NCBI RefSeq assembly: GCF_009931435.1 | Contig: NZ_CP043414.1 | DNA length: 64,000 bases | Source of the DNA: Escherichia coli | GTDB lineage: Bacteria > Pseudomonadota > Gammaproteobacteria > Enterobacterales > Enterobacteriaceae | Strand: one strand, 5' to 3' | Part shown: positions 17,865 through 19,698 of the stretch, piece by piece | How positions within the stretch are numbered: position 1 is the stretch's first letter | Layout: each line of letters starts with the position of its first letter | The notes under the pieces: model-generated | Told to the model about the DNA's origin: nothing | Seen by the model: the letters and a program-made list of their open reading frames with translations, nothing else | The model's database searches: none | Position numbers and translations under genes: made by a program

Positions 17865-17940
17865 GGGTGAGGGCCGGATGAGGATGGTGTTTGATCCGGT
17901 CCATAGTGAAGTTACAAATTACGTTGAATTGCTATGTATT

Positions 17941-18258
17941 TTATTGCCCAACGGGATAGGCGATAAACAAACCGACAATTGTCAGAATACACGCCAGCAG
18001 GAATACCAACATACAATTTACGCGCTTTCGCGAAATTTTAAATAAATAGCAAAATAGTGTTGTTACCACGATCACTACCGGGATAGTCATAAAATTAATA
18101 ACGATGAGTGCTATCAATCCAAAACTTGCTCCTCCACCGTGGGGAATAAAAATGTGTTCTTCAAAATAAACTTCTATAGCAAATGCCAGCACACATCCCA
18201 GAAAACTCATATCCAGATGAGGGTGCCATTTACTTTCTTTATTTGATGTGTCTGACAT
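17941..18258 (-). CDS. hypothetical small membrane protein (three predicted TM helices), AT-rich
   Basis: 105 aa ORF with three hydrophobic stretches; gggag RBS ~10 nt upstream of ATG; clearly AT-rich by eye against flanking genes; sits in an interval I do not recognise as conserved core. Confidence 0.5.
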   Translation of the reverse strand: MSDTSNKESKWHPHLDMSFLGCVLAFAIEVYFEEHIFIPHGGGASFGLIALIVINFMTIPVVIVVTTLFCYLFKISRKRVNCMLVFLLACILTIVGLFIAYPVGQ

Positions 18259-18298
18259 TCTTAAATGCTCCCGTGAGCAAACTGGCGCAAAATAATTT

Positions 18299-19561
18299 CT
18301 AAGATTGCTGATAAGACGTCGCTGTTGTCCGGCACTCCGGGCAGATAAACGCGTAAATTATCCCTTCGCCATATTGTTCAATATCGGCATAATCCAGTTG
18401 CGCAAGAAACATCATTGTGTGGGAACATTGCGGACAGAGAGGATATTCCGCGTCCTGAATCCAGGTTGGATGCCCGCCAAGTTGCGAGAAAGAGACAGGT
18501 AAAAATGGGTCTGCGGCAAATAACGGTGACCTAAGGTTTCCCTGTCTCATGCTGTTTACAGGGAGTCGACGCCATTCCGATACATCATCCGGCAGCTAGG
18601 CAGGCGGGATATTTTTTGCAGACAAATGAGCGTTACCCTTTGAGTCCATGTAGCCGAAAATGGTGCTGTAGGCGGTGCAACATTCGCAAGTCACGACGCG
18701 AAAACTGCCGTTATCGCTAAGACCCGTTGCCTTCAGGTCAACGTCGAAAAGATTTGTTAGGGGCAATGCGCACTTTGGACAGGTATCGCTGCGTTCATCA
18801 ACAACACGCAAAGCTTCGCAAGACCCGGTGCTTTTCATCTCCAGATGAAAACATTGAGGAAAATAGAGATTACGCCTTTGATCTTCAGCGGTTAACTCCC
18901 AACCGGCCTCATGCGCATATTCTTCTGGCGCGATGTAAAGTGAACTGCGCCACAGCGGCGGGTTATTGCGCCAGTAGGCAAAACGTTCAACAACAACGTC
19001 ATCCCCAATCCATGCCAGACATTGCAGAATACAATTTCTGTTTTCTGCATCATCCTCAACCCGTTCTAACAGCGTATCGCGAACATCCGCTGGGGCGCGG
19101 TGGAAAGGCAGAGGAGAATAAGCGTCTAAATCATCATAAGAGATCCACTCTCGTAAATATGCATCCAGATTTGCCTGGGTAAACGCCGCCAGACAAAGAC
19201 AAATCTCCTGAGCGTGTTCATATTCACCAGACGCAAAGCGTTCTGTGGCGTAATCAGCCATCAGCTGCGCTTGATCGGCGGTCAACTGTTGATACAGGGC
19301 ATCGGTGGGAGCGGGGCAGGGAGTCCAGTCGATTAACGCATCGAATTTCCGTGGCTGGTGAACTAATTTCAGCATGGCAATCGGATCGCTTAGCCCAGCA
19401 AACACATTCACGGTCTTTTTATTTTTCCTGATATATTCATCGTGCTCACGCTGCTGTTGTGCCTGAACGCAGGGCATACAGTATCCGTCAGTACGCGCAG
19501 CGGTTTCCGGAAGAATGGTTGATGTACAAGCGGGGCTTTTACAGGGAATACGGTGAGTCAT
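18299..19561 (-). pseudogene. DUF1963 (YwqG-like) family gene interrupted by one in-frame TAG at 18596-18598
   Basis: 321 aa ORF (19561..18596) and 83 aa ORF (18550..18299) are in the same frame, separated by TAG plus 15 sense codons; downstream part carries GGHPTWIQDAEYPLCPQCSHTMMFLAQLD...GEGIIYAFICPEC, matching the conserved DUF1963 core; strong RBS aaggag before the ATG at 19561, none before the internal ATG. Confidence 0.6.
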
Positions 19562-19698
19562 AGAGGCGCTCCTTGCCTGAGGATATTAAGTCGAAAGAGA
19601 TTATTATTAGATATTAGGGTGTCACTATGGCACACAAATTAAACAGAATTAATTTCAAGCCACAAACATAGGGTTATTTTTCTTTTATTTTCATGATA

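What the first reader, a model, noticed from the sequence alone, without database searches (positions are those of the whole stretch)
17941..18258. Orphan AT-rich gene for a 105-aa three-helix membrane protein
The ORF has a credible RBS and three hydrophobic helices, and is clearly AT-rich by eye against its neighbours. I cannot assign it to any family from the sequence. Its position directly downstream of the DUF1963-like gene, 40 nt apart on the same strand, suggests co-transcription and a functional pairing.
Basis: seen in the sequence. Interest (0 to 1): 0.5.

Follow-up and report, generated by a model that had tools for sequence, protein, structure and literature searches.

The report
Small YpfK-family membrane protein gene
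The ORF is a real, conserved gene for a small three-helix inner-membrane protein of the uncharacterised YpfK family, already in the databases as a hypothetical protein; it sits next to a DUF1963 gene that is broken in this strain, so the finding is ordinary.

Summary
An ATG ORF of 105 codons lies on the minus strand at 18258..17941. It has a GGGAG Shine-Dalgarno 9 nt upstream, three hydrophobic segments and 38% GC against 52% for the window. It starts 40 nt after the DUF1963 reading frame.

It is not an orphan. The exact protein is already in RefSeq as a hypothetical protein. All its relatives carry the recent Pfam family PF26378 "YpfK", whose function is unknown. The family is tiny and confined to Enterobacteriaceae (Escherichia, Salmonella, Kluyvera-like lineages). 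It evolves under purifying selection (dN/dS 0.12-0.36), so it is a real gene.

The 1.8-kb DUF1963-ypfK segment sits between hemF and eutR. It is ancestral and was deleted from about 99.5% of complete E. coli genomes.

The pairing idea is only partly supported. The two genes are neighbours in three genera, and in Salmonella their order is reversed. But each gene also persists without the other. The 420-aa DUF1963 family is much wider and stands alone in Paenibacillus and Chitinimonas. In this window the DUF1963 gene is itself a pseudogene (W322 TGG to TAG).

My best guess, by inference only, is that YpfK is the membrane partner or client of the HEAT-plus-TYPP scaffold protein. Interest is low.

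The parts
17941..18258 (-). ypfK-family CDS, 105 aa. Predicted inner-membrane protein with three transmembrane helices, N-terminus in the cytoplasm and C-terminus in the periplasm.
   Evidence: - ORF and hydropathy.
- AF2 model with three helices, low confidence.
- K+R bias across 19 homologues: N-tail 2.7 and loop 2 2.6, against loop 1 0.4 and C-end 0.6.
- Homologues all carry PF26378 YpfK.
- dN/dS 0.12-0.36.
- Identical to WP_001285748.1 of strain MFDS1022581.
18268..18272 (-). Shine-Dalgarno-like GGGAG, 9 nt upstream of the ypfK ATG
   Evidence: Read directly from the sequence.
18259..18298 (-). 40-nt spacer between the DUF1963 stop codon and the ypfK start codon
   Evidence: No promoter-like or terminator-like site was found here.
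18299..19561 (-). Pseudogene of the 420-aa DUF1963 protein (N-terminal Zn ribbon, HEAT-like repeats, C-terminal YwqG/TYPP domain). It is broken by an in-frame amber codon.
   Evidence: - The 321-aa and 83-aa ORFs are in the same frame.
- The intact 420-aa CDS WP_000149701.1 is present in strain MFDS1022581.
- Pfam DUF1963 scores 28.8 bits against a cut-off of 23 on the 83-aa piece.
- AF2 model of the intact orthologue has pLDDT 94.2.
18596..18598 (-). Nonsense codon TAG at codon 322 of the DUF1963 gene. It is TGG (Trp) in the eight other full-length Escherichia copies compared.
19562..19698 (-). 137-nt AT-rich spacer between the hemF stop and the DUF1963 start. AAGGAG lies 8 nt before the DUF1963 ATG.
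   Evidence: No consensus promoter or terminator was detected.
17865..17940 (.). 76-nt spacer between the convergent eutR and ypfK stop codons, containing a weak CCGGAU/AUCCGG hairpin with no U-tract
   Evidence: RNA fold: -10.7 kcal/mol, z-score -1.6.
17875..19698 (.). About 1.82 kb that is missing from K-12-type E. coli, where the eutR and hemF stop codons are 5 nt apart
   Evidence: Junction comparison with strain C600. Only 25-28 of 5426 complete genomes hold the segment.

Best explanation
**Shown**
- The ORF is a genuine protein-coding gene of the narrow, uncharacterised YpfK family (Pfam PF26378).
- It encodes a protein of about 105 aa with three hydrophobic helices.
- Invariant residues include a Glu in helix 1 (E29), an Asn and a Pro in helix 2 (N55, P60), Arg77 in the basic loop between helices 2 and 3, and residues within the conserved stretches IFIPHGGGASFG (loop 1) and LFIAYPVG (C-terminus).
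- Together with a 420-aa DUF1963 gene it forms a two-gene block on the 3' side of amiA-hemF.
- Kluyvera, Salmonella, E. albertii and a minority of E. coli hold the block at this same site. It is therefore ancestral here and was deleted from about 99.5% of complete E. coli genomes.
- It is not a recently imported island. It is absent from plasmid and phage records.

**Inferred**
- Topology is N-terminus in the cytoplasm and C-terminus in the periplasm, based on the positive-inside rule across the family.
- ypfK is transcribed with the upstream genes as the distal cistron.
- YpfK acts as the membrane-embedded partner (anchor or client) of the cytoplasmic DUF1963 protein. That protein is a non-enzymatic protein-binding scaffold: a Zn ribbon, HEAT-like repeats and a YwqG/TYPP domain. 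Eukaryotic relatives of the TYPP domain are dedicated chaperones.
- In this strain the scaffold is inactivated by W322amber. YpfK therefore either works alone or is the surviving half of a decaying module.

The biochemical role is unknown.
For: **Real gene**
- Intact orthologues with dN/dS 0.12-0.36 at saturated dS.
- 24 invariant columns in 19 sequences.
- Exact protein seen on 102 contigs.

**Family**
- All homologues carry PF26378 YpfK.
- Only 7 hits among 1.84 billion representative proteins and 32 clusters by profile search. Every named hit and every locus examined is enterobacterial.

**Topology**
- Hydropathy, AF2 helices and K+R bias.

**Ancestral block**
- Same site next to hemF in Kluyvera, Salmonella and E. 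albertii.
- Clean absence in K-12-type strains.
- 25-28 of 5426 E. coli genomes hold it.
- No tblastn match in plasmids or phages.

**Partnership**
- Adjacency on the same strand in three genera and in both gene orders.
- Similar nonsynonymous divergence of the two genes, dN about 0.26-0.36 against 0.05-0.09 for hemF.
- The DUF1963 protein is a HEAT plus YwqG-fold scaffold.
- Some YwqG-family proteins are fused to TM regions, and a chaperone-like, protein-binding role has been proposed for the domain (PMC4275035).
- PDCD2 is described as a dedicated chaperone of uS5 (PMC7736825, title and abstract).
Against: **Against an obligatory partnership**
- ypfK stays intact where DUF1963 is decayed or deleted (L006/L007, L025, L018, and this window).
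- DUF1963 stays intact where ypfK is absent or frameshifted (Yokenella, WL297, E. albertii).
- The 420-aa family reaches Paenibacillus and Chitinimonas, where no co-directional small membrane gene follows it.
- These are the only two genes in the hemF-eutR/maeB interval, so adjacency in either order could be inherited synteny alone.

**Missing evidence**
- No expression, localisation or interaction data exist. I found no paper on ypfK.
- The YpfK structure model is of low confidence.
Confidence: 0.5

Rival explanations
1. YpfK is an independent small inner-membrane protein. Its adjacency to DUF1963 is inherited synteny at the hemF 3' flank with no functional link. It may instead belong with the amiA-hemF transcription unit, which it follows by 20 nt in Salmonella.
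For: - Each gene survives without the other.
- In L006, L007 and L025 ypfK starts 20 nt after hemF.
- The DUF1963 family is far broader than YpfK and stands alone elsewhere.
- ypfK is intact in this window although DUF1963 is knocked out.
Against: - The pair stays together in three genera despite a change of gene order.
- The single-gene states look like recent decay: remnants of DUF1963 remain in L007, L025 and L018.
- dN/dS in the DUF1963-less pair L007/L025 is higher, at 0.45.
Confidence: 0.35
2. YpfK is an orphan immunity-type or defence-type membrane protein kept in a variable chromosomal hot spot. It could protect against a membrane-targeting bacteriocin or T6SS effector, or act as the membrane effector of a two-gene anti-phage system with DUF1963 as the sensor.
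For: - Size and three-TM layout resemble E1-type pore-forming colicin immunity proteins (my own recollection, not tested).
- The gene is AT-rich.
- The eutR/hemF gap carries variable cargo in other strains, including a Tli3-family T6SS immunity gene, a TacA/GNAT toxin-antitoxin pair and an SNF2-related helicase.
Against: - No hit in PADLOC, PHROGs, or any Pfam or NCBIfam immunity family at E up to 1.
- No toxin or bacteriocin gene lies next to it.
- It is absent from plasmids and phages.
- It has been held at one chromosomal site across genera with saturated dS. This looks like vertical descent, unlike the rapid turnover typical of defence and immunity cargo.
Confidence: 0.1
3. The ORF is a chance open frame in AT-rich DNA and is not a gene.
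For: - ORFs of at least 105 aa arise in 0.5-1.6% of shuffles of this stretch.
- There is no experimental evidence of expression.
Against: - Intact orthologues in Escherichia, Salmonella and Kluyvera-like lineages with dN/dS well below 1.
- 24 invariant residues.
- A Shine-Dalgarno sequence at the correct spacing.
Confidence: 0.02

Closest known systems
Pfam PF26378 'YpfK' (uncharacterised small enterobacterial membrane proteins; RefSeq WP_001285748.1 and relatives)
   Same: - Identical or 44-97% identical sequences.
- Same length, 105-109 aa.
- Same three hydrophobic helices and motifs.
- Same chromosomal position next to hemF.
   Different: Nothing: this is a member. The family has no known function, and I found no publication on it.
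YwqG / DUF1963 (TYPP domain) proteins, which is the family of the neighbouring gene, not of the ORF itself
   Same: - The neighbour's C-terminal domain matches Pfam DUF1963 above its cut-off.
- It has the GGxP motif and paired CxxC motifs described for the superfamily (PMC4275035).
- Some YwqG-family members are fused to TM regions, which parallels a separate TM partner.
   Different: - This protein carries an N-terminal Zn ribbon and a HEAT-like domain.
- YpfK shows no homology to the TM regions of those fusions (not tested).
- In this window the gene is a pseudogene.
E1-type pore-forming colicin immunity proteins and class I holins (small three-TM proteins of about 100-115 aa)
   Same: Similar size, three TM helices and AT-rich genes. 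This rests on my own knowledge and is a lead only.
   Different: - No sequence-family match.
- No adjacent bacteriocin or endolysin gene.
- Not found on plasmids or phages.
- YpfK ends three residues after helix 3, so it lacks the charged C-terminal tail of holins.

Membership tests
Pfam PF26378 YpfK | Match to the family HMM | tested here: met
   This was tested indirectly.
- The precomputed Pfam hit PF26378.1 is recorded for 18 of 19 homologues. These include P0004, the representative of the 90% cluster that contains the exact window protein.
- The name YpfK is shown.
- The model is missing from the local Pfam copy, so a direct scan returned nothing.
Pfam PF26378 YpfK | Length of about 105-109 aa with three hydrophobic helices and the conserved motifs (E29, IFIPHGGGASFG, VIN, LFIAYPVG) | tested here: met
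   Alignment A1 has 24 invariant columns, all present in the window protein.
Pfam PF26378 YpfK | Conserved position on the 3' side of hemF | tested here: met
   Every locus examined has this position: Escherichia, Salmonella and Kluyvera-like lineages. This is my own observation, not a Pfam criterion.
DUF1963 / YwqG / TYPP (neighbouring gene) | HMM match above the gathering score, and the YwqG fold | tested here: met
   - PF09234 scores 28.8 bits on the 83-aa piece and 25.2 bits on the intact orthologue, against a cut-off of 23.
DUF1963 / YwqG / TYPP (neighbouring gene) | Intact reading frame covering both TYPP repeats | tested here: not met
   The window copy has TAG at codon 322. This removes the last 99 residues, which hold the invariant G362/G363/P365 of the GGHP motif and Q388.
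Pore-forming colicin or microcin immunity proteins | Sequence-family match, and linkage to a bacteriocin gene on a plasmid or island | tested here: not met
   - No such Pfam or NCBIfam hit at E up to 1.
- No plasmid match.
- The neighbours are hemF, DUF1963 and eutR.
Class I holins | Three TM helices plus a charged C-terminal tail, in a phage lysis cassette | tested here: not met
   - The protein ends at residue 105, three residues after helix 3.
- PHROGs gave no significant hit; the best was an unnamed family of unknown function at E 0.21.
- No phage match.
Known anti-phage defence systems (PADLOC 2.0) | Match of any component to a PADLOC model | tested here: not met
   There were no hits for YpfK or for either the split or the intact DUF1963 protein.

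The most novel reading that the evidence does not exclude
DUF1963 and YpfK form an undescribed two-protein module. A bacterial TYPP-domain scaffold, related to the eukaryotic uS5 chaperones PDCD2 and Tsr4, would escort or regulate a dedicated small inner-membrane protein. The module would be expressed from the amiA-hemF transcription unit and so be tied to envelope or haem physiology. This would give the first functional handle on bacterial YwqG-family proteins.
Probability: 0.2. Interest if true: 0.4.

Novelty: already known. Interest (0 to 1): 0.2.

Why it matters
It matters little for this window.
- The gene is an already catalogued hypothetical protein from a named but uncharacterised Pfam family.
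- The useful outcome is a corrected annotation: ypfK-family gene, DUF1963 pseudogene, and an ancestral block lost from most E. coli.
- There is also a modest, testable lead. A small membrane protein recurs next to a HEAT plus TYPP scaffold protein, and no bacterial TYPP/YwqG protein has a known function.

Tried and rejected
**Family scans.** NCBIfam, the local Pfam copy, PADLOC and PHROGs gave only noise for YpfK. A profile search of PDB sequences gave nothing.

**Homologue searches.**
- An exhaustive phmmer search of 1.84 billion representatives and a profile search found no relatives outside the family. No remote homology could be used.

**Structure.**
- The AF2 model of YpfK was too uncertain (pLDDT 58.8) to justify a fold search, so none was run.

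**Species-level survey.**
- Two scans of the species-representative genome collection found no ypfK.
- The DNA pattern matches every locus I hold, so the planned survey failed.
- I replaced it with twelve contig look-ups.

**Literature.** Searches for ypfK, STM2452/STM2453 and PF26378 found nothing relevant.

**Explanations for the gene-order swap.** A decayed second ypfK copy on the other side of DUF1963 would have explained it. I looked for one and found none.

**Other readings ruled out.**
- Mobile-element origin: no flanking repeats and no plasmid or phage match.
- An RNA element: no Rfam hit and only a weak hairpin after ypfK.
- A lipoprotein reading of 'FLGC': there is no signal-peptide-like hydrophobic N-terminus.

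Full report
**Setting.** The window is E. coli chromosome. The eut operon (eutA to eutR, plus strand) converges on hemF-amiA (minus strand), followed by ypeA, yfeZ, yfeY and yfeX. The 12 kb beyond hemF is 95-99% identical to nearly all complete E. coli genomes, and the best match is 99.2%.

A 1.83-kb stretch lies between the eutR stop (17864) and the hemF stop (19699). K-12-type strains lack it; in strain C600 the two stop codons are 5 nt apart. Only 25 of 5426 complete E. coli genomes carry at least 80% of the stretch, among them EPEC E2348/69. Three more carry only its DUF1963 part.

**The observation.** The ORF is as described.
- It runs from ATG at 18258 to a stop ending at 17941 on the minus strand, 105 aa.
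- GGGAG lies 9 nt upstream.
- Hydrophobic segments fall at about 17-33, 44-73 and 82-103.
- GC is 38.4% with GC3 35.8%, against 51.6% for the window.
- There is a 40-nt gap after the upstream frame on the same strand.
- An ORF this long arises in 0.5-1.6% of shuffles of the local AT-rich DNA. Length alone is therefore weak evidence.

**Is it a gene?** Yes.
- Homologues exist in E. coli, E. fergusonii, E. albertii, Salmonella enterica, Kluyvera georgiana and two further Kluyvera-like lineages.
- Pairwise dN/dS is 0.12-0.36, while dS between genera is 0.8 to saturation.
- 24 columns are invariant in an alignment of 19 sequences. They include E29 in helix 1, N55 and P60 in helix 2, R77 in the basic loop, and residues within the conserved IFIPHGGGASFG and LFIAYPVG stretches.
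- The exact window protein is already in public collections on 102 contigs as a 'MULTISPECIES hypothetical protein [Escherichia]'. It is annotated as WP_001285748.1 in strain MFDS1022581.

**Family.** All homologues carry a precomputed Pfam hit to PF26378, named YpfK. That model is newer than the local Pfam copy, which explains why my direct scan was empty.

The family is very small. There are 7 hits among 1.84 billion representative proteins and 32 clusters by profile search. Every named hit and every locus I examined is from Enterobacteriaceae. Nothing significant turned up in NCBIfam, PADLOC, PHROGs or PDB sequences, and tblastn found no match in plasmid or phage records. I found no paper on it. 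So it is not an orphan, but its function is unknown.

**Topology.** AlphaFold2 on the 19-sequence alignment gives three helices (14-35, 43-73, 77-100) at low confidence, mean pLDDT 58.8. Across the family, Lys+Arg average 2.7 in the N-tail and 2.6 in loop 2. The averages are 0.4 in loop 1 and 0.6 at the C-end. By the positive-inside rule this predicts N-in/C-out, with the conserved acidic IFIPHGGG loop facing the periplasm. This is inference.

**The neighbour.** In other E. coli strains the upstream gene is one 420-aa CDS annotated 'DUF1963 domain-containing protein'. In the window, codon 322 is TAG where all eight other full-length Escherichia copies have TGG. The gene here is therefore a pseudogene, or at best a truncated product that lacks the second half of its C-terminal domain.
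- An AlphaFold2 model of the intact orthologue is confident, with pLDDT 94.2.
- The protein is thus a Zn ribbon, HEAT-like repeats and a YwqG/TYPP domain.
- Burroughs and Aravind proposed a protein-binding, chaperone-like role for TYPP domains. They noted that some YwqG-family members are fused to TM regions (PMC4275035).
- Eukaryotic PDCD2 is described as a dedicated chaperone of uS5 (PMC7736825).

**Co-occurrence survey.** The arrangements I found are listed below.

| Lineage or strain | Arrangement |
|---|---|
| Window and most island-bearing E. coli | hemF>DUF1963>ypfK<eutR |
| E2348/69 and A37 | A 223-aa hypothetical gene and an SNF2-related gene lie between hemF and DUF1963 |
| E7-1N7 | A TacA/GNAT toxin-antitoxin pair is inserted after hemF |
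| WL297 | ypfK is replaced by a 221-aa hypothetical gene, a Tli3-family T6SS immunity gene and two TPR genes |
| Three Kluyvera-like lineages | hemF>DUF1963>ypfK<maeB |
| Yokenella | hemF>DUF1963<maeB, no ypfK |
| E. albertii | DUF1963 intact, ypfK frameshifted |
| Salmonella locus L027 (Paratyphi A) | hemF>ypfK>DUF1963, intact at 425-430 aa, so the order is reversed |
| Other Salmonella (L006, L007) and L025 | ypfK intact 20 nt after hemF, with only decayed C-terminal remnants of DUF1963 behind it |
| L018 | A 55-residue N-terminal remnant of DUF1963 lies in front of ypfK |

The 420-aa family itself is much wider, reaching Citrobacter, Phytobacter, Chitinimonas, Paenibacillus and many metagenomic sequences. 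In Paenibacillus and Chitinimonas no co-directional small membrane gene follows it.

**Reading of the survey.**
- The block is old and resident at this site. It was lost from most E. coli by a clean deletion with no flanking repeats.
- It is not a recent AT-rich import.
- The two genes travel together in three genera and survive a change of order, which favours a functional link.
- Both also evolve several-fold faster than hemF at nonsynonymous sites.
- However, each gene can be lost while the other stays intact. They are also the only two genes in the interval, so adjacency is weak evidence.
- I rate the partnership at roughly even odds.

**Mechanism.** I commit to the following.
- YpfK is a small N-in/C-out inner-membrane protein made as the last cistron after hemF and DUF1963.
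- It most likely serves as the membrane partner or client of the HEAT plus TYPP scaffold.
- In this strain the scaffold is knocked out.

Only the gene, its family, its hydrophobic layout and its genomic history are shown. Expression, topology and the partnership are inferred.

**Rivals.** The rivals are an independent membrane protein (0.35), an immunity or defence-type gene in a variable hot spot (0.1) and a chance ORF (0.02). The scans that bear on each are cited above.

**Unexplained.**
- The species-representative genome scans found no ypfK, although the pattern is valid.
- ypfK of Salmonella L007 and of L025 differ by dS 0.19, while the adjacent hemF genes differ by dS 1.45. This suggests the segment was exchanged between genera.
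- I could not reconstruct how the gene order was swapped.

**Verdict.** The gene is an already catalogued member of an uncharacterised family. Interest is low.

Noticed in passing
window 18299-19561 (-), nonsense codon at 18596-18598: The DUF1963 gene of this strain is a pseudogene. Codon 322 is TAG where eight other full-length Escherichia copies have TGG. The intact protein models confidently (pLDDT 94) as a Zn ribbon, HEAT-like repeats and a YwqG/TYPP domain.
   Followed up: yes
eutR/hemF gap in other E. coli: L008/L020 (E2348/69), L014 (A37), L009 (WL297), L010 (E7-1N7), L011 (C600): The eutR-hemF gap is a variable spot.
- It is empty in K-12-type strains.
- E2348/69 and A37 hold an SNF2-related 1149-aa gene plus a 223-aa hypothetical gene.
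- WL297 holds a Tli3-family T6SS immunity gene, two TPR genes and a 221-aa hypothetical gene.
- E7-1N7 holds a TacA/GNAT toxin-antitoxin pair.
- The 221-aa and 223-aa proteins are 62% identical and match no Pfam or PADLOC family.
   Followed up: partly
L027 137-1872; L007 4579-5190; L025 3001-3486: In Salmonella the gene order is reversed to hemF>ypfK>DUF1963. Several lineages keep ypfK intact while DUF1963 has decayed to C-terminal remnants. I found no trace of a second ypfK copy that would explain the swap.
   Followed up: partly
L007 4579-4908 vs L025 3001-3330, and the adjacent hemF genes: ypfK differs by dS 0.19 between these two genomes, while the neighbouring hemF differs by dS 1.45. 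This points to exchange of the ypfK segment between genera.
   Followed up: no
L019 6001-6317 (E. albertii); P0017 (Salmonella serovar Havana): The E. albertii ypfK carries a frameshift. One Salmonella allele has a 12-residue deletion inside helix 2 but keeps a span long enough for one TM helix.
   Followed up: no
L011 943-1995 (E. coli C600): eutR is annotated as a pseudogene with an internal stop in strain C600.
   Followed up: no
I do not know the cause.
   Followed up: partly
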